Shown piece after piece: positions 5,353 through 45,280 of a stretch of 64,000 nucleotides of DNA. This DNA is from Octopus vulgaris (taxonomy: Eukaryota). Position 1 is the stretch's first letter. Each line of letters begins with the position of its first letter. The notes under the pieces are model-generated. The model did not search any database, was not told where the DNA came from, and saw only the letters and a list, made by a program, of their open reading frames with translations. Position numbers and translations under genes: made by a program. The stretch lies in contig OX597817.1 of the NCBI GenBank assembly GCA_951406725.2, positions 17,980,001-18,044,000 of the forward strand. The letters are read 5' to 3'.

Positions 5353-5610
5353 AAGTACATGCAGTAATGTAGAAATGTCTGGAAAGTGAACATGCTTGTG
5401 TGTGTATGGAGGGGAGAAAATCAAGTGTAGTGTTGGCGAATCTCAGGAAGCATGGAAGTCTTGAAGGATGCAGTGCTCCGACAACTAACAACCGATGCCG
5501 GCAGTTTGTTCCACGCTTCAGCAACTCTCAGCGTGAAAAAATGTTTCCTGAAGTCATGGGAGCTGTGCTGTTTTCTTACTTTGTAAATATGTCCACGGGT
5601 GTTAGATGGG
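5353..5610 (-). mobile_element. CR1-type LINE 3' fragment
   Basis: Encodes SNTRGHIYKVRKQHSSHDFRKHFFTLRVAEAWNKLP, matching the C-terminus of the 14432-15679 ORF. Confidence 0.9.
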
Positions 5611-5901
5611 TGGAGTTGGTTTCTATGGCTGGATGCTCTTCTTAATGCCAACCATTTTACAGAATGCACTGGGTGCTTTGTATATGCATTTAGTGAAAAA
5701 GAGAAAATACTGTTCTGTCCTGTCTTGAATTCTTGTGACTAAGCACTAGATCCATGTCTCCCAATCTGGGACGCTGGGAATGTAAAAGAAACAGATTCAA
5801 ATTAAACATCCATCTGCATTTGAATATCTCTAAGAAAGGTTGAGTTGATTTGTCATCAAAGGAATACTTGGTTAATAGTTGGTAAACACTAGACTGGATT
5901 A

Positions 5902-10339: not shown

Positions 10340-11460
10340 AAGCACAAACATGTGTGTGCACTAGCAGTGATAGCATGTCTGCACCATTTGCTGAAGACAT
10401 TTTAGCCCTTGGAGAAGGCAAGGTACCAAGGAATGATAGGGGCGACATATCCATCTCTGAACTGTGCAACACCGTGGACAACCCTTCCGATCTTTTGGAA
10501 ACAGTGTTCCCCAATCTGGAAAGTAATATGTACGAGACATCAATAGGCTCAGTGAAAGAACCATCCTGCTCCCCCATAAACATAGCTGTCAGTGCTATCA
10601 ACAACCAACTCATAAGCCGAATTCCAGGTGGGGAGCACATCTACAAATCGATTGACCAGACCTCTGACCTCAAAGATATCATTGTCAATTACCCTATCGA
10701 GTTTCTCAACTCATTGGAGCCAGCAGGGCTTCCACCTCACATTCTTAGGCTAAGGGTTGGATGTCCAATTGATGCTAATCACCGGAAACTTGCTTCTGCC
10801 TAAACCAGTGCAACGGGACCCGCTTAGTAATCAAGTCTCTGACGCCCCCCACTTGATTGAGGCCACTATTGTTACAGGGTGCGGGAGGGTATGCAAAATG
10901 TTTTCATTTCAAGGATGCAGCTTTATCCCTCAGGGTCAGATGTGCTGTTTGACTTCCTGTAAAGATTGCAGTTCCCAGTGAGACCATGCTTAGCAATGTC
11001 TATCAACAAATCCCAAGGCCAAACACTATCGGTGGTAGGCATCCATTTGGGGTTTTCCATTCAATCAGGATAAAAAATTGATAAACCAATTCCTTATAGG
11101 ATTTCCCACTAAAATTGGCTACACCTCATTTTCTAACCATAACTTTTACAAATTTTGACATATATTTTACTCAAACTTGATGCCAGCATTACTTAGGACT
11201 CATGGTATCGTTGAATGCTTTAAGTTCTCAAAAAAAAAAAAGACAGTCGATGAGTGGAAATAATTGATAAACCAATTCCTTATGGGATTTCTCAATCAAA
11301 ATTGCCTGCAACTCATTTTCAGCCAAACGTTTACCAATTTCAATGGAATCTGCTCAAATTTGATTGATGTTGGTGACACTTTATTTTGGTTTGAAATATA
11401 AGCGCTGGATGCTTAATAATCCTAGCTTAACTCCCTGGCAACACCGAGCTACTACTGCTA

Positions 11461-14360: not shown

Positions 14361-17300
14361 TAATAATAATAATAATAATAATTGTGTACAGTGCTCAGGT
14401 GCACTACAACTCATCTAAAGTGTATATATAATCAGGTGTAGTTTCGGCGGATTTCGGAAAGCATGAGGGCCTTAAAAGATGCAGTGTTATGGCAGTCAAC
14501 AACTGACGCAGGCAGTTTATTCCATGCTTCAGCAACTCTGAGCGTGAAGAAATGTTTCCGAAAGTCATGGGAGCTGTGTTGTTTTCTGACTTTGTAGGCA
14601 TGTCCACGTGTGTTAGACACATGGAGATCAAAAAGGTGTTCAGTGTTGTTGTTGGTGAGGTGGTTGATAACTTTGTGGGTGTTTACCAAGTCCGTCGCCA
14701 AACGCCGGAGCTTCAGTGAATCCATGCCCAGGGAAACAAGGCGCTCAGAATATGGTAGGTGTCTGATGGAGGGTATGCGTTTGGTTGCACGTCTCTGGAC
14801 AGATTCCAGGAGGTCAATGTTCTGTGCAAGATAGGGGTTCCAAACTGATGATGCGAATTCCAAGTGTGGTCGTACCATAGCTGTATACAGTTTTAAATAG
14901 ATGGCTGGAGAGCGGCTAACAAAAGACCTGCTGAGTGATGCCAAGACACCCTCGGCCTTCCTGACAATCTTAGAGATATGCTTTGACCAACGCAAATCAC
15001 TGCTGACAGTGATGCCTAGGTCACGCTCGCAAGAGGATTTCTTGATATCAGTGTTGTGGAGGGAGTATGTGAACGCAGGGTTTTTTCTCCCAAAATGCAT
15101 GGTGGTACACTTGTCCACAGCCAGTTTCAGTTGCCAGTCTGTGATCCATTGCTGCATTGTGTCTAGGTCTGATTGCAGGAAAGAGTTGTAGACATCAGGA
15201 TCTGTCCTCTTGATTTCAAGGTACAGCTTGATGTCGTCTGCATATTTCAATACTGTGGCATTCTTTAAATTGGCATCTATGTCGTTAATGTATGCCACAA
15301 ACAAGAGGGGGCCAAGGACAGATCCCTGTGGTACACCCGATGACATCTCATATGGTGTAGAGTGCTGTCCTAGAACTGTGACTACCTCCTTTCGGCTGAG
15401 GATGAAGGATTTCAACCAGTTAAAAAGGTCATCCCCCACACCCATTGCAGAGAGTTTCACCATAAGCCTTTTGTGTGGCACAGAGTTGAAAGCCTTAGCA
15501 AAGTCAAGGTAGACAACATCCACCCATGAGCCACTGTCAGTAATCTGAGTAATGTCCTCAAGGAACTCGACAAGCTGGTCACTGCAGCTGGAGTTAGGGA
15601 CAAATCCATATTGTGAGGGTCGGATGAGACTGTGAGAGCTCCAGAAGTTCCAGAGTGTTTCTCTGACACACGATTCCATCAGTTTTGCAATACAGCTAGT
15701 GAGACTGACTGGGCGATAGTTGACAGGTGATGTGCGGTCGCCCTTTTTGAACAGAGGAATGACACTGGCAGTTTTCCACTGCTCCGGAGTAGCACCATTG
15801 TTGAGACAGTACTGGAAGAAAATAGAAAGCTGGTGTAAAGGAAGTGCCTGCCACGTTTGAGAAGCAGGTATGTAACTCCATCGAGACCAGGGGAGGCATA
15901 GTTGCGCTTATTTTGAAGGTGACGTCGCAGCATTGCAGGTGTAAATTCCATAGTTGTTATGGAGTTTGCTGTTAGTGATGGTGAAGATGGTACATTTTGA
16001 CTTTCAACAGTGAATATGTTTGCATAGCACTCGGCAATGAGTTCTGCGCATTCCTTGGGGTCGTCAGTGATCTGGTTTGTGTGAGGGTTGCGAAGAGGGC
16101 CCACTGGAGAGTGAGGTCTCTGCTTTGAGTGCACATATTTCCAGAAAACCTTGCTGTCAGGATTGGCTGCTATGCACTGTTCAAATTCAAGCACTGCTTT
16201 TTTTGTCACTTGCTTGAGATGGTTGGAGGATTTATTCCGCTTCTTCCTGTTGGTGTCTGATTTATGCAACCTGTATTCCCGTTCAGCAGTCCGACGTTCC
16301 CTCCTGGCAAGTCGGACCGCTGAAGTTTCCCAAATTGCCCTTTTGGGGCGGTTCTTCTTTTTTTGTTTACGTGGCACTGATGCTGCACATGCTGCCCATA
16401 TTGAGTCCAGGATACTCTGGAGTATAGTATTCACATCTCCAGAGTTGTAGAATTCACGCCAGTTTGGGTGCTGTAGTTCAGTGTGGTACAGGTTCCAATC
16501 TGCTCTCTTCCAATCGAAGGAAGCAGATTGGAGATGGTTCAGGTTTTTGTTGCCCGCAAGAGCCAGATTGGCGATGATCATAGCATGATCAGAGTCACCT
16601 AGAGGTTCCTCCGTAGTGCAATTGATAACCGCTTCAGGAGTTGTGGTGAAGAGCAGGTCCAAGGTGTTGTCGCCTCTTGTTGGAGAGGTGACTACTTGTG
16701 ACCAGTTTGAGTCCAGCACAAGCTCAACAAAATCGTTTGCACTCTGTGGCCAATGGAAGGTCTCCCAATCGATCTCAGGATGATTGAAATCGCCTGCAAT
16801 AAACACATAAGTGGCTGTTTTCCTGGCAGCAGCTCGGAGGACATTGCAAAGCTGTGTGTCCCGATGGTAACTTGGGGGACGATAAACAACGCCAAGCAGG
16901 AGTGTTGACATGGTCATACGCACGTCACAGAAAAAAACTTCTTCTTGTGATTCGTTCAAATCGGCACAAGGAATTACCAAAAAATTTGAACGAACGTAGA
17001 CCATCACACCACCACCACGGCGGTTAGTGCGGTCCTTACGGAAGAGGTTGTACCCCGTAATGTTGAAAACCCCATCACAGAGTAAGGAATGCGCCCATGT
17101 TTCCGTGACAGTGATGAAGTCAGGGTCAACACTTCTGACGTAGGCGTTGAACAAATGTATTTTGTTGCATAAACTGCGAGCATTTAAGGACAACAATTTG
17201 TACCCTGCTCGCAGTTTATGATGGTGTGTAGAGGATGGCAGGTTGTTCTGGCTTAGTTTCCCTGAGTTGCTGTAGTTTTTTTAGTTATTGTGGGTAGAGA
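14361..17300 (-). mobile_element. CR1-type non-LTR retrotransposon: APE+RT ORF2 with one frameshift, 3' UTR and (TTA)n tail
   Basis: APE motifs LNARSL, ETW, GGGV, YRPP, GDFN, SDH (15679-17196). RT motifs YLDFAKAF, GVPQGSVLGP, YADD (14432-15679). The frames join with one indel near 15838. The tail at 14361-14382 truncates a SINE A head (14277-14360). Confidence 0.95.
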
Positions 17301-28931: not shown

Positions 28932-29441
28932 GCTTTTTTTCCACATGAAGATCACCTCTACAACGGACAAGAATGCTTCTGTAGAAGTTGATTTTTACTT
29001 ATCATCCGAGATGATACAATTTTATTCTAGGCTCAACTTCAGAATGGTTCCTGATTATAAACGTATCTATATATGAGTGTGCGCGTATATACATATATAT
29101 ATATAACACAAACATATACACATGATGGATATCATACTGAAAAAGGTTGTGATGAATTTTTCCGGTTGCCAATAAAAGTTACCTCCCTTTAATGAACGCT
29201 TACCAAGTTTGAAACTTTAGTATAGTGAGGAAAGATGAATTAAAATAAAAAGAAAGAAAAAAAAAACCCAAAATGTTTTATTTCTCTTATTGAATGTATT
29301 TTAAAATGAACTTTCTTTCCATAGCTGAGAAAAAAATATCTTCCGTTCAAAAATAGTTTTAAATAATATAATAAAAAAAAAGAAAAATATGGAAAATATT
29401 TTTGTTAAATTTTCAAAATGATTTTGAAAGCTTTTTTTTAG

Positions 29442-29918
29442 TTAAGGAAATAATTTATAGCTAGGATTCCGGGCTGTTCTTATGGTCTTCACTTTCCTGA
29501 GCTGTTCTTCAGAAAGTGTGTTTAATTTTGACCGTTTAACACAGTTTGGTGGTGTTTTCAATATTATTTCATCATCACTGCTGTCATCTTCCAGCAAATA
29601 TAAACTGTTATCTAATTCAGATGGTGTAGATTGAGTATTACTGAGCATCCAGGAGTCAGGGTATGTGAAAATGCTCTCATCCTCCACATAGTTTTCATCG
29701 GAAACAGGAATCGTAAAAGAATCATCAAGGGTTTTAAAATGAAGAGCAACGTTCTTGTTAAATGATTTATTACGATTATTTTCCCAAAACGCGATATCGT
29801 TGTCATTAATCCTTTGACCTTCATTCCTCTCATTCAGTGTCTGACTGTTATTGGATTGTTCCTTAATTGCATGCCTGATTTTCATTCTTAGAGCACTTGG
29901 TAAATTTTCCTGCTGAGA
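29442..29918 (-). CDS. NIFK: NIFK alternative (distal) terminal exon, 158 aa
   Basis: Polypyrimidine plus cag acceptor in phase 0; open frame; its last 51 aa are 37/51 identical (manual count) to the proximal terminal exon and include the NIFK-like DDEIILKTPPNCVK motif. Confidence 0.72.
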   Translation of the reverse strand, partial: SQQENLPSALRMKIRHAIKEQSNNSQTLNERNEGQRINDNDIAFWENNRNKSFNKNVALHFKTLDDSFTIPVSDENYVEDESIFTYPDSWMLSNTQSTPSELDNSLYLLEDDSSDDEIILKTPPNCVKRSKLNTLSEEQLRKVKTIRTARNPSYKLFP

Positions 29919-30141
29919 CTGAAGAAATAAATAAAAAAAAAACAGAGTTAGTACAAAAAAAATGCACTTTGACATGTTTGTTGGTGGCTTGCAAATTAGA
30001 AATCAAAGGACATTTTTGATAACTTAAGAAATCTTGAAACCATCCAATTTACCATGTCATAATATTATAAAAGGCAAACAACCAAGCACTAACAAGTACT
30101 AAATAATACTGAAGTGAAGAAATTACATTTTTTTTTATTAA

Positions 30142-30499
30142 GGCGCAGGAGTGGCTGTGTGGCAAGTAGCTTGCTTACCAACCACATGGTTCCGGGTTCA
30201 GTCCCACTGTATGGCACCTTGGGCAAGTGTCTTCTACTATAGCCTCGGGCTGACCAAAGCCTTGTGAGTGGATTTTGTAGATGGAAACTGAAAGAAGCCC
30301 ATCGTATATATGTGGGTCTGTGTTTGTCACCCCAACATTGCTGGTGTGTTTATGTCCCCGTAACTTAGCAGTTTGGCAAAAGAGACTGATAGAATAAGTA
30401 CTAGGCTTACAAAGAATAAGTCCTGGGGTCGATTTGCTCAACTAAAAGGCGGTGCTCCAGCATGGCTGCAGTCAGATGACTGAAACAAGTAAAAGAGTA
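30142..30499 (+). mobile_element. SINE family A
   Basis: Match to the other copies. Confidence 0.88.
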
Positions 30500-30501
30500 A
30501 G

Positions 30502-30723
30502 TTAACCCTTTTGTTCCCAACCCAGCTGAAACCGGCTCTGAGTACAAATGTCTTGTTTTCATAAGTTTTGAATTAAAATCTTCCACCAAACCTTAGTCAC
30601 AATTTATGTTCCTCACACTAGCTGAATGATAACTAAGTTATTTTATTGAATTCTTTGTTATATTTAAAGTAATTGAAAGAAACACAGAGCATCTCAAAAT
30701 AAATACGGTAATGGAAGGGTTAA
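30502..30723. mobile_element. TTAA-flanked piggyBac-like MITE
   Basis: TTAA-CCCTT ... AAGGG-TTAA; reverse-orientation relatives at 41814-42033 and 20849-21096. Confidence 0.8.
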
Positions 30724-31899
30724 ACTATTTTTATTACAAATTTTCAAAATTATTCTTTAAATTTTTCTCACTGAGATTTTAGGCTGTTTTTATGATTTTA
30801 TCTTCTCTAAATTGCTTTTGAGTTTATACATGTTGACTCACTTTGATTTAATAGTAAAAACTAAAATAAAATCAAAATTGAGCTATAGGAAAGCTGTGGA
30901 TCAAAAGAATGATATTTAATAGGAGAAAAAGGAAAGTTTGTTGAGAGAAAGAGAGTTTAAAGTAGCTAGCTAGTTATCAATGTTATGTTCTAGTGATATA
31001 TATATAGTGTTGAGGGCTGTGGTCATTTATCTCCAGATCACTGACTGAGCAGTCATTGCTAACTCATCTTTTTGTGTAGTTAGGTACTACATTCACTAAT
31101 CTCCCCTCCACAGGGTTTTTTAATGGATCTCAGCTGGCCTGTGGCTAAACAACAAGAAGTACGTAAAACAAAATAAATATAACACCTAACAACAGAGATG
31201 GAACCATTCAAAAAGGAATGTACATTTTTTAAGAAAGAAAGACGCCTCCCATAAAACGGAGATAATGGAAAACAGAAAGGACAAAATATTAGTCAGTCTA
31301 ATTGTAAATGTAGAAAACAGTTATATTTTCGTTTGTATAAAGCAGAAGGGAAATGGAATTACACTGAAAAGTAGGTTCGGAGCTGTGAAACACTTCATCC
31401 ACTCAAAGCAAATTTACACACAAGAATTCCTTCGGTTTATAGAACATTTGCATGAACTTTCCGAGTTAAGGGAAGTGGTCTTACTTGGTCATGAGTTGAG
31501 TTCTGTTCCCTTCCATTTCATCCATATAAACATACACATGTAGTGGCTGTTGATTTAAGGAAACTATGTTTCCATTGGCTTTTAAAATTGCTGACACAAT
31601 CTTAATATCTGTTGATTTCAATCCTTAGCAGTGATATCACCTTTTTCTATGTTGGGTTGGTATTTGAACTCAGAATGAACTGAGCCAAAATAGATGCTGT
31701 GAGACATCCTGCCCATTGTTCTAAAAATGCTGCCAACTTAATAGTCTGGACTGCTGAAAGGCTGAAAAGCAAAGTTGACTTTGTCTGGATTTGAACTTAG
31801 AACCAATCCTGTAAGGTATTCTAGACACAAGACCACTTATAGATACGTTTGTGGCTTTGAAGAAGAGAGACTGTATGCATAATCATTTTTGCATGTCCT

Positions 31900-32250
31900 C
31901 TGAAACTGCTGTAGGAAGGAGAAAGAACCATCACTCCTGGGTTATTCACAACCCTGCTCTGAATGCTTACAACAGAGTGGATTCCATTAATGGCACCACC
32001 TGTTTCCTAAAAATGTGCTGTAATGGGACCTTTATGCTGTTGAAAAAGATTACATTGTTATGTCCTAATTGAAGGATGTACACAACATCTCGGCTTATAG
32101 ATTCTTCCAATCCACGAAATAGGAGATATGAAGACTCTAGCCACACATCTTAGCTAGAAGATTCCCATGTCAGACATGGTAGGTTTTCCTGATGTCAAGT
32201 GCAACATTATTACTTTCACTAAAGTTCTCCGCTGTGAGGGATCACTCGGA
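31900..32250 (-). mobile_element. Highly degraded LINE RT fragment
   Basis: Minus strand gives ..NVALDIRKT..V*HGNLLAK, resembling the RT motif VALDISKAFDRVWHxGLLxKL. Confidence 0.5.
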
Positions 32251-32562
32251 AGCGATATACAAGAACAAGAAAATAACTGAACAACATATTTTACAAGACT
32301 GAAATGAAACCTTTAGTTGTCTGACAAGAAGTACTTATACACTACCAGATTAGAAAAAGATAACTTTGTGACATTAGAGATAAATAATTGCTTTTACAGG
32401 TAATAAGTGATGTAGTGGTGACAGTGGCATTGATAGTAAAGACCGAAAACAAATAAATACTTTTTACATGGCTAAAGTTAATGCTTCATCAATTTGGGCT
32501 TAAAAGTATTTTTAGAATGATAATGTGAGGCTGGTGTCAAAAATAAAACAAACAAAAATAAT

Positions 32563-32945
32563 GGGAGTGGCTGTGTGGTAAGTAGCTTGCTAACCAACCA
32601 CATGGTTCCGGGTTCAGTCCCACTGCGTGGCATCTTGGGCAAGTGTCTTCTGCTATAGCCCCGGGCCGACCAATGCCTTGTGAGTGGATTTGGTAGACGG
32701 AAACTGAAAGAAGCCTGTCGTATATATGTATATATATATGTGTATGTGTGTATATGCTTGTCCCCCTAGCATTGCTTGACAACTGATGCTGGTGTGTTTA
32801 CGTCCCCGTCACTTAGCGGTTCGGCAAAAGGGACCGATAGAATAAGTACTGGGCTTACAAAGAATAAGTCCCGGGGTCGATTTGCTCGACTAAAGGCGGT
32901 GCTCCAGCATGGCCGCAGTCAAATGACTGAAACAAGTAAAAGAGT
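32563..32945 (+). mobile_element. SINE family A
   Basis: Match to the other copies. Confidence 0.9.
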
Positions 32946-34322
32946 AATGAGTAAGCTGCTTGGGTTGACTATATCACTTATAAACCATTCTCTAACAAAA
33001 ATGCCTATTGTCTGCCCTGATAAAGGTGGAAAAAAGAATTAGTACATCAGTTGATCAAAATATTTTGACATATCCAGTTATGTCCCTTTATGTTTTGAAT
33101 TGAAATCACAGCATGACTACAGCTGAAATGCATTTGATCAAGTCTGTTCAAAGTGTGTATGGTTACTATGAGTAGATGCATCTTTTTTTCAAGGAAGAAG
33201 ACACAGTATCAAGCTGGTATCCCACTCAAATGAAACACAATACTGCAAGACATCAAAGTAACATGCACTGTATGAAATACAGGAGCATTAATAGTATTCT
33301 TCTGTTGTACATTCACAGAGCACTAAGTATTTTTTTTTCCAACATTAAATAGATGAGGCACATTTTTCATTTCAGGTACAGAAATATTTATAATGACAAT
33401 AAACTTTTCTTATTAAGTCATATTAGTGTTTTAAAATGAAACTGAAAAAAAACAGAATTTAAAAAGTAGGTTAGATATAATTTCAAAAGTTGTTAATATT
33501 TCATTCCTCAATAGGAAAAAAATCACAAATGTTACTCAAAAATCTTTGAATTTGAAATACTTAACAGATTTTTCCTTATTTGTGAGAATGAAATCACACA
33601 CATGTACAAGCTGTTTTGGGTAAATTTGACAATATCCCATCCAAAAATAAAAGTATTTTAAGAAATCAAAAAAGAATTCCTAGATTATGGTTGGGAGATA
33701 ACAGTTAACTCAAAGTTGCCACCATCATGGCCTCAAGACAACTCTGGAATCTGGTGCATGCATTCCCCACTGCATCCTTGGGAAGACCTTTGAAAGCCTT
33801 CTCGATCTTGGCTTTGGGATTTCAGGCAGAGCAGTTGGTCTTTCGTAATCCATAAGATTAAAATCAGGGAAGTCAGGAGGTCAGAAATTATTTGATAATC
33901 ACTTCTGATTCTTTCTAGAGGTATGGCAAAGAGCTGAAACCTGCTGTCACACATATGTCCTTCCATCAGCAACCCTCTACAGCCAGGGATTGACTACAGT
34001 CTCCAGTAGCTTAACATAGCCATCTGAATTGAGTCTAAGGCTGTGTTCAAAGATGCGCGGAGAGTCAGAACACCTGCTAGCCACAGCTTTCCCTGTCACA
34101 TTTTACAGTGTTCACAGAGCATTAACTAGCAGTCATGATGTTGATATCTTGATACCTGGTGTGACTCATCATGATACAGGTAATTCTTTTCCAATATTCA
34201 GATGGTTTCTAGTCTCCTATTCAGTTAACTATTTTTCAATTGCAACTTTAATTTATGTTCTCCAATACATCGACCTTAAAAAATTAAACTGTCAAATTTA
34301 GCTCAAACACACACACTCTCTC

Positions 34323-34360
<38 letters not shown>

Positions 34361-35789
34361 CTGTAATGAAGGTAAGTTAGAAATGTTAAGTAGGAAAGAT
34401 ATAATTTGGTTAATCAGTGAGAGTAAATAAAATGATTGTTGGGATTCTACTTGCTCAAAAACAACTGCGTCAAGTTATGATCTTATTTCATGGTTGAACT
34501 TTGGTTTGTAGAAGGTAGATCCATCTGAGAAGACATATACTCCAACAGTATGAAAACATCTAAAACTTATAAAATTACTCTAGATGAGAAAGTATAAATG
34601 ATATATATATCTCTAAAAGAATCATAAAGATATGTGCTTAGTTAAAGTTTCACTGCCATTGAACAGATCAACTAATATTTCTTGACATAAAATCCATATA
34701 TAGGAGCTTGCTGTACAGCTAAGAGACATAAAATGGAACAGCTTCTAGACTTCTTGAAAGAAAGTGTTTTATACATATTAGCTCAGTAAGCTATTCTAAT
34801 TATGAATTGTTGTTCTAACCAAACTTTCTGCTAAATTACACTTTCTCTTAAGGCACAGTTTGAAGAATCTAAGGTTTGGACACTGTTAGGGATGCTTGAC
34901 CTCACAGTCTCTGATGAATTTTTGTGGCAATTATAAGCATAACATTACCAAAATTGATTTACAAATGTAAAGTTACCTCTTTGAAGGCAGTGGCCAGACA
35001 CGACCCTGTGGTTATGAAATTTGTTTCTCAATCACATGATCCCGAGTTCAACAACATTGAAGAGCATCACAACAAGAAATAGTATACCACAGCCTTACAG
35101 GTGAGATTGAAGAGATAAGAACTTTTGTCCATTGTACTTAGATGGGACACTAATCTGATTTAACATTACCTGGCCTTTCGGCACCTTCAGTGGAATTTAC
35201 TCTGATGCAGGCTTTGGTTTCTTCCTCCATTCTATACAAAAAGGTGTAGGCATTGCTATTCAAACACTGACTATGAGAACCATAAAAAAATAATTCCAAG
35301 CCAAGTGAAATCATAGTTGTGGGAGATACCAGTGTCACACAACTGGCACATAAATGCACCAATTACACTCTTGGAGTGGTTGGCATTAGGAAGGTCATAG
35401 AAACCATGCCAAATCAGACTGAGAGTCTGGTGCAGCCCCTCAGCTTACCAGCCCTTGTCAAACCGTCCAACCCATGCTGGCACAGACAACAGACGTCAAA
35501 TGAAGATGATGACTGCTATACTCTACACATCAAGAACAGTGTAGCTGCTACTAGATTCTAGATTCAAGTTTAAAAGAAAGCCCTCCTGTTCAGCAGTTCT
35601 TAGCTAACAAGCTACAATTACAAGCCTATCAATGTGATTAGTTTCCTCCCTCCTACTGCAGCTATGAATCCTGCTTACAACTTAGCCAAGTCGCATATTA
35701 AGCACTCTCTGCCTCTTGTAACTCCTCACGGAGCTCACTCTTCTCTGTACTGAATCTTCTTTCCACAGGTGTACCCCACTGAAACTTCC

Positions 35790-36022
35790 ATGTTTTCACC
35801 ATAGATATCTCAATTGAAGGAGAGAGGCTTTCTCCGTCCGGGTTGTGGTTCCGTGGAATAAGCTGCCGGATGAGATAGTGAAGATGCTGACGACTGCTCG
35901 GTTCAAAGTCTTCCTTGACCACAAATGGCCTGAACTCTTTACATGAACACCACCCTGTACATAACTCCATGTCCCCCTACATGGCCTTGCTTTTTGAGCC
36001 AAAAAATTAACTAACTAACTAA
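35790..36022 (+). mobile_element. CR1-type LINE 3' end (second family) with (TAAC)n tail
   Basis: RREAFSVRVVVPWNKLPDEIV...FK is a typical CR1/L2 ORF2 terminus; tail AACTAACTAACTAAC. Confidence 0.7.
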
Positions 36023-36336
36023 CATACCCACTAGAAGTTCAAGCTGAATATCAACTCCTTACAACTCACTAGTTGGGAAACGTCTAGATGAACTATGGAC
36101 ACAGTCTATAACTATCCATATAAAAAAACAACAAAACCCTCAATAAAATAAGTAAACTTAAATACAGTCAAATTAACTTTCAGAAAACCAAAAAATAGTA
36201 TAATTCAAGAACCCTAAACTTATGATAGAGACTGCAATGCCCCCTAGTTAAAATGAAAAAATTTAACAAAATCACAAGTCAGGTGCTACACCTTAAAACA
36301 TCAGCTTAACAGCAATCATCATACCAGAAGTTCATT

Positions 36337-36564
36337 TAACCCTTTAGCATTTAAACCGGCCATATCCAGCCAAAAGTATTCTGCCTGTTTTATGGTCAAA
36401 CTGGCCAGATCTGGTCTCTCACACCAACCCTACAATATTGTTTTAAAAATTAACAGCTACCTCATCAAAATCTCATAGCTACAAGATAATGCATGATTAA
36501 TTCAAAACAATTTAGATAAAAAAGGATTAATTTTGGCAGAATAATGCAAACACTAAAGGGTTAA
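36337..36564. mobile_element. TTAA-flanked piggyBac-like MITE
   Basis: TTAA-CCCTTTAG ... CTAAAGGG-TTAA. Confidence 0.82.
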
Positions 36565-36744
36565 ACAAATATAATCCATGTCAGCACATATTAGTATGAC
36601 CCAATAAATGTTGAGATTTGTAAAATTGCCCAAGTTTTTTTATACTAGTTTGACTTGGGCAATTTTGCAAAAAAAAAATAAGTTGTTAAAAAAGTTAAAG
36701 AGAAGAAATTAGTTTAGAAATTTTTTATTGTAAAACTTTTATAA

Positions 36745-37083
36745 TTATTCTTTAACCTTTTTTGGTTTTGGGAATAATTTAAAGCTGGGTGCTTTGGCTG
36801 TTTTTACGGTCTTAACTTTCCTGAGTTCTTTTTTGGAAAGCTGGTTTAATTTTGAGAGTTTGACACAGTTTGGTGGTGTTTTTATCTGTATTTCATCATC
36901 ACTGGGGTTATCTTCCAGTAATAATATGCTGCCACCGGTTGTGGAGTCACCTTCATTAGTCGAATGACTGGCATCAACTGCAGAGAGCGTCGACTCATCT
37001 GTCTTCATCTCTGAACTGTCATCAGTTTCTTTTTTAGCTACAGATTTGAGCTGCTTATCTAAACTGGTCATGATTGATTTCTC
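36745..37083 (-). CDS. NIFK: NIFK proximal terminal exon, 112 aa
   Basis: Acceptor tttatttttcag|GAG in phase 0, matching the upstream donor; DNPSDDEIQIKTPPNCVK resembles human NIFK DDKDDEIVFKQPISCVK; ends in TAA. Confidence 0.87.
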   Translation of the reverse strand, partial: EKSIMTSLDKQLKSVAKKETDDSSEMKTDESTLSAVDASHSTNEGDSTTGGSILLLEDNPSDDEIQIKTPPNCVKLSKLNQLSKKELRKVKTVKTAKAPSFKLFPKPKKVKE

Positions 37084-41091: not shown

Positions 41092-41530
41092 TATATCACC
41101 ATCATCATTTAAATGTGCCGGTGGCACGTAAAAAGCACCCACTACACTCGCGGAGTGGTTGGCATTAGGAAGGGCATCCAGCCGTAGAAACTCTGCCAGA
41201 TCAGACTGGAGCCTGGAGCAGCCCCTGGCTTCCCAGACCTCGGTCAAACGATGATGATGATGATTCCAAGCTGGTATGGTTTCTATGATTGGATGCTCTT
41301 CCTAACGTCAACCACTTTACAGAGTGCATTAGGTGCTTTTATGCGGGCCACCCAGCACCTACGAGTCTGCAAGAGTAGGATCCCTCAGCTGAGAGACGGA
41401 TGTAGATAACATGCCTGTAAGTATGGAAGGCCAGGCATGTCCTCTACATCACACCCATGCTGGCATGGAAAAACAGATGTAAAATAATCAAAAAAAGTTG
41501 CTACATGTTCATCATGCTCCTGTTACTCAC

Positions 41531-41748
41531 CAAGTTGCTTGAATCAAATTCGATACCTATATCCTTAAGCTTTTCCACCCTTTTATTGAGCTTCTTCAGG
41601 GAACGAATGGTTTTATATCGAATCACTTTAGTAGATTTAGCTGAATTGTGTCGATCTCTGGAAATGATATGAGATTTTGGTGCTGAGAATTTTCTGTTAC
41701 ATCCTTTGAATAAATTGACTTTCACTTCTTCTGGTGGAATGAACCGAC
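41531..41748 (-). CDS. NIFK: NIFK exon 4 (CRFIPPEEVKVNLFKG...KLKDIGIEFDSSNL)
   Basis: ttcctccag / gtgagt, 218 nt, phase 1/0; matches human CHFMPPEKVHKELFK...KLAKKGIDYDF. Confidence 0.92.
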
Positions 41749-42225: not shown

Positions 42226-42325
42226 NNNNNNNNNNNNNNNNNNNNNNNNNNNNNNNNNNNNNNNNNNNNNNNNNNNNNNNNNNNNNNNNNNNNNNNNNNN
42301 NNNNNNNNNNNNNNNNNNNNNNNNN
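42226..42325. other. Assembly gap (100 N)
   Basis: Run of n characters. Confidence 0.99.
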
Positions 42326-43110: not shown

Positions 43111-43233
43111 TCTTTTACTTCGTGATAGTCTAAGGCGAGTCACTTTGCCAAATTGACTGAAATACGCTCTCATTTGGTTCTCAAAGAATCCATAGGGGAT
43201 ACGACCAAGATAAACAACACCACGCCCAGTTAC
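43111..43233 (-). CDS. NIFK: NIFK exon 2, first half of the RRM ([41 protein letters not shown])
   Basis: ctaaaag / gtaagt, 123 nt, phase 0/0; diagnostic NIFK/Nop15 GVVY..(H/R)IP.GF.E.....YFSQFG.VTR.RLSRSKR. Confidence 0.96.
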
Positions 43234-44139
43234 CTTTTAGAAAAGATATTATCAATAACATTTTGATAAAAAAAAAAGTATATACATGTACAGTTAAATG
43301 TAGAAATGTAGAAATGTAAAGTATAATTTGTTACATAATCTCTATAATAAGCATGACATTGAATGAAATAATTCCCTCGTTTGAGCTTTTTTAATTACAT
43401 ACGTGTGTAAACGCAGAAATTGAAACAAATATGGACTTGTTCCGAAACACCCCCGAGTGGGGAACAAAAACAGGTAAATTTTCATCCCCAAAAACAACCC
43501 CCAAAGAAGACTTTCATATCTCTGTCTCTTTATACACCAATCAATGTGCTTATTGAATTAAAAAGTTTAAAAACGTGGTTTCTTGCAATCTCCGGAATCT
43601 CCGAGGTCATCTAAAACATAGTGGGGGGGGGGGGGAGAAACAAATTTCGAAAAGTTTAAATGGGAGGGAGGAGTGGGTGTTAATCCTTTTTTTTTTTTTG
43701 CATATTCGTATCCGCCGACATCTAAAACGTAGAAATCTGAAAAAAAAAAACCTTTTCAAAAAATGCATCGGGATCCGAAAAATTTTGTTCATAAAAATGC
43801 ATTTTACAAGGAGAGGTGCGAAACTGCATTAGCCATATGTTCGTAGAAAATTTCATTAAAAAAATATCCATTTTTCTGAAAGTTATGATCATCCAAAGTC
43901 GTCGGTGGGGGTGACAGAAATCCGTAGTTATCCCCACCGAAGATCCTTAGTTGTTACATCGTTTATAATTTTCGCGAGGATAAGAAACTTCTTTAGGTTA
44001 AAACAACTATCAAAACACGACAATTGTAAAATTCCAGCCACTGATAATAAACAACTTGGTTATCACCAGTCGATAAAACTTGTTCCCCTTCGACAAGTAT
44101 TTTGCTTAAATGTTGATTTCAATCACAAACTCAGAAAAC

Positions 44140-44477
44140 TGGCGACGGACTTGGTAAACACCCACAAAGTTATCAACCACCTCACCAACAACAACACTGA
44201 ACACCTTTTTGACCTCCATGTGTCTAACACACGTGGACATGCCTACAAAGTCAGAAAACAACACAGCTCCCATGACTTTCGGAAACATTTCTTCACGCTC
44301 AGAGTTGCTGAAGCATGGAATAAACTGCCTGCGTCAGTTGTTGACTGCCATGACACTGCATCCTTTAAGGCCCTCATGCTTTCCGAAATCCGCCAAAACT
44401 ACACCTGATTATATATACACTTTAGATGAGTTGTAGTGCACCTGAGCACTGTACACAATGTTTTTATTATTATTATT
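44140..44477 (+). mobile_element. CR1-type LINE 3' fragment
   Basis: Nearly identical to the 3' end of 14361-17300, with a (TTA)n tail. Confidence 0.92.
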
Positions 44478-44479
44478 CT

Positions 44480-44903
44480 GGCGATCTTTCGTCTCTAGTA
44501 GACCTTTCCGTCGATTTCCGTAAAAAAATTTTTTTTTTTTACATATGGGCTTGCGGGAACTTTTGAAGTAATATACATACATATACACATACACCGAGTA
44601 AAAAATTTCAGTTATCTCTTTCTTTCACACATTACTCTGTCTCTTCACACACACTAACAGAAGCACTTCACTTACACAACATACTGTCTGTCTCCCACAC
44701 CCCATCAAACACACACACACACATGTACATCAATGCTTCCCATGCACGGTAACTTCAAAAGAACTTCCCTCGTCATACAATCGCTTTCTCTTAGTCTCTT
44801 TCGCTCTCATTACTTCAAAAGTTCCCGCAAGCCCATATGTAAAAAAAAAAAAAAATTTTTTTACGGAAATCGACGGAAAGGTCTACTAGAGACGAAAGAT
44901 CGC
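44480..44903. mobile_element. MITE with ~90-bp TIRs inserted in (TTA)n
   Basis: GGCGATCTTTCGTCTCTAGTAGACC...TTTTGAAGTAAT and its reverse complement at 44809-44903. Confidence 0.85.
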
Positions 44904-45169
44904 CCCATTATTATTATTATTATTATTATTATTTAAAACGCCGTCTTTTCCAGTAAAAGGAAAGGAAGCAAAATATTACGGAAACTTGTAAATTCTACTG
45001 GTTTTGAGTTCGAAGATTATGAAGCAAGTAAAACAGAAATAGATAATTGTTAGGAACAATTAATTAATTACACAATAATATGTTTATGTAAGGCAAGTGC
45101 CCCACGTGCTTGACAGTCAACATTCAAAAGATTTACGGCAAAATAATGATTTTAATTAAAGTGGCTTAC

Positions 45170-45280
45170 TTTAGTAGACTCGACGTTGGCAAATTTTTCG
45201 AATTCTTTCTGTTCTGACGGCAGTAATGCCAGATTTTCTGGTAATTTAGGAACCTTTCTTGAAGATTTGCCAGTTGCCAT
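45170..45280 (-). CDS. NIFK: NIFK exon 1 (MATGKSSRKVPKLPENLALLPSEQKEFEKFANVESTK)
   Basis: atcATGG start context, donor gtaagc, 111 nt, phase 0; LALLPSEQKEF resembles human LSLNPQEDVEF. Confidence 0.88.

What the first reader, a model, noticed from the sequence alone, without database searches (positions are those of the whole stretch)
29442..37083. NIFK/Nop15 has two duplicated, diverged, still-open alternative terminal exons
Seen in sequence: downstream of NIFK exon 4 (phase-0 donor at 41531) are two phase-0 acceptors about 7 kb apart, each opening an uninterrupted frame (112 aa at 36745-37083; 158 aa at 29442-29918). They share a 51-aa block (LLED..SDDEI..KTPPNCVK.SKLN.LS...LRKVKT..TA..PS.KLFP) that is 37/51 identical by manual count, with many conservative swaps (K/R, I/L, V/I, F/Y), while the N-terminal linkers cannot be aligned. 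No second copy of exons 1-4 was found between them. Established: NIFK is a ribosome-biogenesis RRM protein whose human C-terminal region carries the phospho-Thr Ki-67 FHA-binding segment; that TPVCTP motif is not evident in either exon. Inference: an old exon duplication kept under selection yields two NIFK isoforms with swapped C-terminal tails and 3' UTRs. The distal form lacks the final KPKKVKE basic tail and might be tissue-specific.
Basis: partly seen in the sequence, partly recalled or inferred. Interest (0 to 1): 0.75.

Follow-up and report, generated by a model that had tools for sequence, protein, structure and literature searches.

The report
Octopus NIFK's duplicated Ki-67-binding last exon
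The octopus ribosome-assembly gene NIFK carries two diverged copies of its last exon, each with a segment predicted to grip the cell-division protein Ki-67; the near copy is spliced into mRNA, and the far copy, whose protein counterpart also appears in an argonaut gene model, is likely a rarely used alternative ending whose splicing has not yet been seen.

Summary
NIFK (minus strand, single copy in this Octopus genome) has a proximal last exon A (37083-36745, 112 aa) and a distal paralogue B (29918-29442, 158 aa). They share a 51-codon block (37/51 aa), and no copy of the upstream exons was found. The exon 4-to-A splice is bridged in 3 of 4 runs laid, and A is the tail in O. sinensis and O. 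bimaculoides models. Not shown: any splice into B. Contigs cover B unspliced, and two gene models reach B from donors inside A, one out of frame. A/B dN/dS (0.33-0.53) alone does not exclude a neutral B. Verdict: probably a minor alternative last exon, a known kind of event in a new gene.

The parts
45170..45280 (-). NIFK coding exon 1
   Evidence: tblastn of O. sinensis NIFK 97%; GTAAGC donor
43111..43233 (-). NIFK exon 2 (first half of RRM)
42226..42325 (.). 100-N assembly gap; exon 3 (about 37 aa of the RRM) is missing and most likely lies here
   Evidence: N run; exon 3 not found in window or genome
41531..41748 (-). NIFK exon 4, phase-0 donor GTGAGT
   Evidence: covered by spliced contigs
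36745..37083 (-). Proximal last exon A, 112 aa, ending in PKPKKVKE; the shown spliced form
   Evidence: joint 37082/41530 in runs X1, X5, X6; 100% identical to O. sinensis XP_029635386.1 188-299
36769..36921 (-). Shared block in A: acidic stretch, DDEIQIK strand, TPP, basic tail (predicted Ki-67 FHA-binding element)
   Evidence: O. bimaculoides orthologue aligns to human NIFK 252-274; motif role
36945..36950 (-). Phase-1 GT inside A used by O. vulgaris model CAI9720746.1 to reach B out of frame
   Evidence: model tail reproduced exactly
36811..36816 (-). Phase-0 GT inside A at the position where the Argonauta model leaves its A copy; would join B in frame
   Evidence: weak donor (AAA|GTTAAG), use not shown
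36724..36729 (-). AATAAA just after the stop of A
   Evidence: X1 spliced contig ends at 36722
29919..29953 (-). Acceptor of B: TACTAAC branch-site match (29953-29947), 22/26 pyrimidines, CAG; further in-frame AGs 6 and 9 nt in
29442..29918 (-). Distal paralogous last exon B, 158 aa: 107-codon N/S/D/E-rich linker plus block
   Evidence: unspliced contigs in 4 of 4 runs laid
29445..29597 (-). Shared block in B: DDEIILK strand, TPP
   Evidence: PF12196 weak match E 0.0075, below cut-off; 30/53 to Argonauta distal block
29277..29282 (-). AATAAA 160 nt after the stop of B

Best explanation
NIFK's last exon, which holds the predicted Ki-67 FHA-binding element, lies here in two tandem copies; the near copy A is spliced to exon 4, and the far copy B is likely a selected but rarely or tissue-restrictedly used alternative last exon that would give a 345-aa NIFK with the same RRM and a different tail. 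Shown: two copies, open frames, the exon 4-to-A splice, single-copy upstream exons, B's acceptor signals, a distal block in Argonauta. Inferred: the duplication predates the Octopus-Argonauta split; when the spliceosome skips A before its nearby poly(A) signal is used, exon 4 joins B in frame; the B protein would still do RRM-dependent rRNA processing but differ in the tail that docks on Ki-67 in mitosis (longer acidic linker, an extra Thr-Pro 17 residues before the strand, no terminal KPKKVKE), tuning that docking or its localisation.
For: Open 107-codon linker: 4 of 20000 base shuffles open. Of 24 minus-strand positions in the window with a YAG after at least 21/26 pyrimidines, only B's three AGs have TACTAAC, and between exon 4 and B only the A and B acceptors pass (thresholds set after seeing the site). 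Argonauta model GAB1599129.1 has A then a second block; B matches that distal part better (68.9 bits, 129 columns) than A does (55.5 bits, 59 columns); both distal copies share SLY; the anchored B-to-B linker score beats 1997 of 2000 shuffles, against 461 of 2000 reaching the A-to-distal score. Linker decay needs about 0.3 substitutions per site per branch, at which a neutral B keeps 37/51 identity in 0.8% and an open frame in 12 of 1000 runs (0 of 1000 with indels). C-terminal swaps are 77 of 236 human tandem-exon events (PMC9741552).
Against: No splice into B among 15 of 873 joints listed, and no listed B contig reaches its acceptor. No protein with B in frame after exon 4 in four searches. 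Both models that use B enter it from inside A. Conditioned on silent change in the block alone, a neutral B is not rejected (P 0.25-0.44); dN/dS upper bounds reach 1.03-1.15 at kappa 4. The B-with-B tree has weak support (SH-aLRT 63.6, bootstrap 56) and rival trees are not rejected (AU 0.39, 0.22). Argonauta's distal copy has lost the Thr-Pro. Unanchored B-to-B linker alignment is not significant (343 of 2000).
Confidence: 0.58

Rival explanations
1. B is entered from a donor inside A, not from exon 4: in frame from the phase-0 GT at 36816 (a tail with two FHA-binding strands in a row) or out of frame from 36950 (a truncated tail without the element).
For: The Argonauta model leaves A after QLRK and continues to a second block; the window has a phase-0 GT there. 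The O. vulgaris model uses the 36950 donor and B's acceptor.
Against: The two models use different donors. The O. vulgaris model also shifts the exon-2 donor to bridge the missing exon 3, so it is partly a prediction artefact; the Argonauta pipeline mixes ab initio, RNA and homology evidence (PMC12682272 section 23; that this record comes from that assembly is inferred). Spliced contigs read past both donors (X1, X5) or past 36950 (X6). The out-of-frame route would not explain B's open frame.
Confidence: 0.15
2. B is a relic: once functional or homogenised by gene conversion with A, now a pseudo-exon read only as run-on transcript.
For: No junction listed and only unspliced contigs, of the kind also seen on intron stretches; premature stop before KPKKVKE; block-only simulation does not reject neutrality.
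Against: Conversion of the block would not keep 107 linker codons open or a branch site and tract intact; a second lineage holds a long open distal copy.
Confidence: 0.15
3. B is a separate short gene or internal-promoter transcript, starting at Met12 and giving a 147-aa tail-only protein that would compete for Ki-67.
For: In-frame ATG at codon 12; contigs on B are unspliced.
Against: The strong acceptor just upstream is unexplained; no stand-alone protein record among 9 candidates of 86-277 aa.
Confidence: 0.08
4. Assembly artefact (haplotype duplication) or a retroposed mRNA fragment.
For: An assembly gap lies 5 kb upstream; BLASTP stretched B's linker onto the end of exon 4.
Against: 22% nucleotide divergence in the block; B is present with 1-5 differences in contigs of four runs; second block in Argonauta. 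The exon-4 likeness is chance level (98 of 500 shuffles) and B has an acceptor.
Confidence: 0.03

Closest known systems
Tandem duplicated exon substitution events with C-terminal swaps (PMC9741552; passages seen)
   Same: Two homologous 3' coding exons in tandem behind shared upstream exons, conservative changes in the core, unalignable disordered parts.
   Different: NIFK is not named in that paper's main text (0 hits; its supplements were not read); use of the second exon is not shown here.
Human NIFK / yeast Nop15 (PDB 8fkp_SH, 11aa_o; PMC4615200 passages)
   Same: RRM protein; the O. bimaculoides orthologue aligns to human 12-274 including the DDEIVFK region.
   Different: Lacks human Thr234/Thr238 TPVCTP; has Thr-Pro right after the strand; last exon in two copies.
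Ciona-type NIFK tail (bioRxiv 10.64898/2026.06.18.733134; abstract, passages and section 7 seen)
   Same: Conserved strand followed directly by Thr-Pro; the preprint lists an octopus Ki-67 homologue.
   Different: Binding there is an AlphaFold3 prediction; its Table 1 and supplements could not be seen, so any octopus NIFK result in them is unknown; no exon duplication in the passages read.
Argonauta hians GAB1599129.1
   Same: NIFK with A followed by a second, distal block.
   Different: Modelled as one fused 563-aa protein; distal copy has lost Thr-Pro and has a longer (225-aa) preceding stretch.

Membership tests
NIFK/Nop15 | RRM and similarity to human NIFK and yeast Nop15 | tested here: met
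   O. bimaculoides orthologue: PF00076 E 2.5e-13, human NIFK E 5e-43; window exons 83-93% identical to it
NIFK/Nop15 | Complete RRM in this assembly | tested here: inconclusive
   Exon 3 missing at a gap; spliced contigs carry extra sequence 5' of exon 4
NIFK Ki-67 FHA-binding segment (PF12196) | DDEIVFK-like beta-strand | tested here: met
   DDEIQIK in A, DDEIILK in B; alignment to human; PF12196 hit to B 109-123, 16.2 bits, below the 25-bit cut-off
NIFK Ki-67 FHA-binding segment (PF12196) | Human Thr234/Thr238 pair | tested here: not met
   A has only KTPP; B has KTPP and one TP at 98; fits the Ciona mode instead
NIFK Ki-67 FHA-binding segment (PF12196) | Binding to Ki-67 FHA | not tested
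   No octopus Ki-67 FHA sequence was obtained
Tandem duplicated terminal-exon substitution | Two homologous coding exons in tandem, same strand and phase, upstream exons single | tested here: met
Tandem duplicated terminal-exon substitution | Each copy has acceptor, stop and poly(A) signal | tested here: met
Tandem duplicated terminal-exon substitution | Both copies spliced to the same upstream exon | tested here: inconclusive
   A shown in 3 of 4 runs; B not among 15 of 873 joints listed
Tandem duplicated terminal-exon substitution | Conservation and purifying selection on both copies | tested here: inconclusive
   For: not decisive:
Tandem duplicated terminal-exon substitution | Both protein isoforms made; tissue bias | not testable with these tools
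   Needs proteomics or ribosome profiling

The most novel reading that the evidence does not exclude
Octopods have kept, for at least about 29 million years, a splicing switch on an essential single-copy ribosome-biogenesis gene that swaps, doubles or removes its Ki-67-docking module: exon 4-to-A, exon 4-to-B, and perhaps an A-into-B form with two strands, used in particular tissues or proliferative states.
Probability: 0.3. Interest if true: 0.62.

Novelty: new member of a known kind. Interest (0 to 1): 0.42.

Why it matters
The role of the NIFK-Ki-67 contact is stated as unknown in a 2026 preprint, and the human tail is largely dispensable for rRNA processing (PMC4615200). A lineage that keeps two versions of exactly this module, diverged in phosphosites, linker and basic end, is a natural experiment on what the contact does. 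It also explains two odd public gene models (O. vulgaris truncated, Argonauta fused). The mechanism itself is a known kind. No description was found in searches 'NIFK + octopus', 'MKI67 FHA domain-interacting + cephalopod', 'NIFK / alternative last exon / isoform', within an open-access library only.

Tried and rejected
Run search on B: no RNA holder on record; 14 holders were guessed RNA; 4 of 24 listed runs were laid. Contig depths on B (2.9-5.5) and on the exon 4-A contigs (360-633) are noted but cannot rank parts of a gene; bins without cover between A and B are not used. A closer look at reads around B's acceptor was not obtained, so the junction stays open. Retrocopy idea: rejected. A/B dN/dS as proof of selection on B: rejected as insufficient. 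Tree of five blocks: undecided. Metagenome scan: 595 pattern matches, 0 relatives. Protein atlas: no usable hit. Earlier scan findings: none. No structure or complex prediction was run: the tails are low-complexity and no octopus Ki-67 FHA sequence was at hand. In some searches exon 2 was entered 1-2 bases short; this affects only the printed exon-2 acceptor. PMC9635652 (passages) gave no divergence figure.
Full report
Setting. The window holds a minus-strand NIFK gene of an Octopus: exons 1 (45280-45170), 2 (43233-43111) and 4 (41748-41531) and tail A are 89-100% identical to O. sinensis XP_029635386.1 and 83-93% to O. bimaculoides XP_014783311.1 (the exon-4 figures include some intron). Exon 3 is absent from the window and was not found in the genome; a 100-N gap sits where it belongs. 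The gene is single copy: of 7 genome matches to the O. bimaculoides protein, 5 lie in this locus and 2 are weak RRM hits of 26-34% elsewhere.

Observation. A (37083-36745) gives 112 aa and B (29918-29442) 158 aa from phase-0 acceptors 7165 nt apart. They share 51 codons, 37/51 aa and 120/153 nt. DNA likeness runs 74% over 253 columns, from the block into the first 70-95 nt after the stops. Only two copies of the tail were found in the genome. B stops at a TAA where A has the Lys of its basic end.

What the block is. The O. bimaculoides orthologue aligns to human NIFK through residue 274, placing the block on human 252-274, and B 109-123 weakly matches the last third of Pfam PF12196, the Ki-67 FHA-binding domain (E 0.0075, below cut-off). 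A 2026 preprint (10.64898/2026.06.18.733134; abstract, passages and section 7 read) states that human DDEIVFK forms the strand that pairs with the FHA domain, that Ciona keeps the strand but moves the Thr-Pro to just after it, and lists an octopus Ki-67 homologue. Both octopus copies fit that pattern (DDEIQIK-TPP, DDEIILK-TPP). B has one more Thr-Pro, 17 residues before the strand, against 20 for human Thr238. Binding was not tested.

Which exon is used. Four of 24 listed runs were laid; their RNA nature is the tool's guess, but three of them (three studies) hold contigs bridging exon 4 to A with GT..AG ends. In all four, B is covered by short unspliced contigs with 1-5 differences; these runs were chosen for holding B, and similar short pieces lie on intron stretches, so DNA or unspliced RNA is not excluded. 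None of the 15 joints listed (858 hidden, mostly repeat noise) enters B. Protein searches found no record with B in frame behind exon 4: 1 of 229 longer candidates (an A form), 0 of 9 near-length, 3 of 170 with the tail region, 2 hits in the full HMMER scan. The O. vulgaris model CAI9720746.1 does use B's acceptor, but from a donor inside A and out of frame; it also lacks exon 3 and bends the exon-2 donor, so it is weak evidence.

Is B kept by selection? For: its 107-codon linker is open (4 of 20000 shuffles; 2.8% of such stretches are open on the window's minus strand, simple repeats and a reverse-transcriptase element included). Its acceptor is the only site of 24 tract-bearing YAG positions with TACTAAC (post hoc thresholds). 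The Argonauta hians model GAB1599129.1 holds NIFK exons, an A copy cut after QLRK, and 280 further residues ending in a second block; the fossil minimum for the Argonauta-Octopus split is given as about 29 Ma (PMC12682272, passages and section 23). B matches the distal Argonauta part better than A does, shares SLY with it, and the anchored linker test favours B-with-B (3 of 2000 shuffles; A-with-distal 461 of 2000). If the linkers are homologous, their decay needs about 0.3 substitutions per site per branch, at which a neutral B would rarely keep its identity (0.8%) or frame (12 of 1000). Against: dN/dS 0.33-0.57 with upper bounds up to 1.15; a block-only simulation leaves a neutral B possible (P 0.25-0.44); the five-sequence tree is undecided, so independent duplications are not excluded; the Argonauta distal copy has no Thr-Pro; O. 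bimaculoides and O. sinensis DNA for B could not be examined.

Mechanism. Most likely (0.58) B is a minor alternative last exon. A's poly(A) signal lies 16 nt after its stop, so B can be reached only by skipping A or leaving it through an inner donor before cleavage (inference). The product would be 187 + 158 = 345 aa with an unchanged RRM, which is the part needed for rRNA maturation in human cells, while the tail affects mitotic localisation and proliferation modestly (PMC4615200, passages). Rivals: entry from inside A (0.15), relic (0.15), stand-alone tail (0.08), artefact or retrocopy (0.03).

Comparison and verdict. It works like the tandem duplicated C-terminal exon swaps catalogued in human genes (77 of 236 events; PMC9741552, passages); membership is met for layout and signals, inconclusive for splicing of the second copy. 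Searches (listings only) found no description for NIFK or cephalopods; the preprint's Table 1 and supplements could not be seen. New member of a known kind; interest 0.42, held down by the missing junction and raised by the identity of the duplicated module and its presence in a second octopod lineage.

Noticed in passing
window 41291-41530 (-): In run X2 one contig runs from exon 4 on into intron 4 for 240 nt (12 differences). Read-through would end NIFK after 9 more residues, without any tail, like Nop15; no AATAAA in the first 430 nt, and a repeat begins nearby, so it may be a contig artefact.
   Followed up: partly
window 42226-42325: Assembly gap removes NIFK exon 3; the O. vulgaris model CAI9720746.1 lacks the same exon and has a broken RRM.
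   Followed up: yes
window 36817: Run X1 shows a variant at the base just before the phase-0 GT inside exon A, which would make that donor closer to consensus; its contig still reads through.
   Followed up: no
window 14432-17280 (-): Two overlapping long frames (491 and 533 aa) that look like the endonuclease and reverse transcriptase of a LINE element, in different frames (recognised from recall, not searched); fragments of its 3' end also near 5421-5738 and 43860-44408.
   Followed up: no
window 10342-10803 (+): 153-aa frame resembling a PIF1/Helitron helicase fragment (recognised from recall, not searched).
   Followed up: no
window 44480-44910: A roughly 100-nt inverted repeat pair flanks a short insert in NIFK intron 1 (seen), like a small DNA transposon.
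   Followed up: no
P0006 residues 400-440: The Argonauta distal stretch holds a near-exact tandem repeat of about 17 aa, suggesting that the B linker grows by internal duplication.
   Followed up: no
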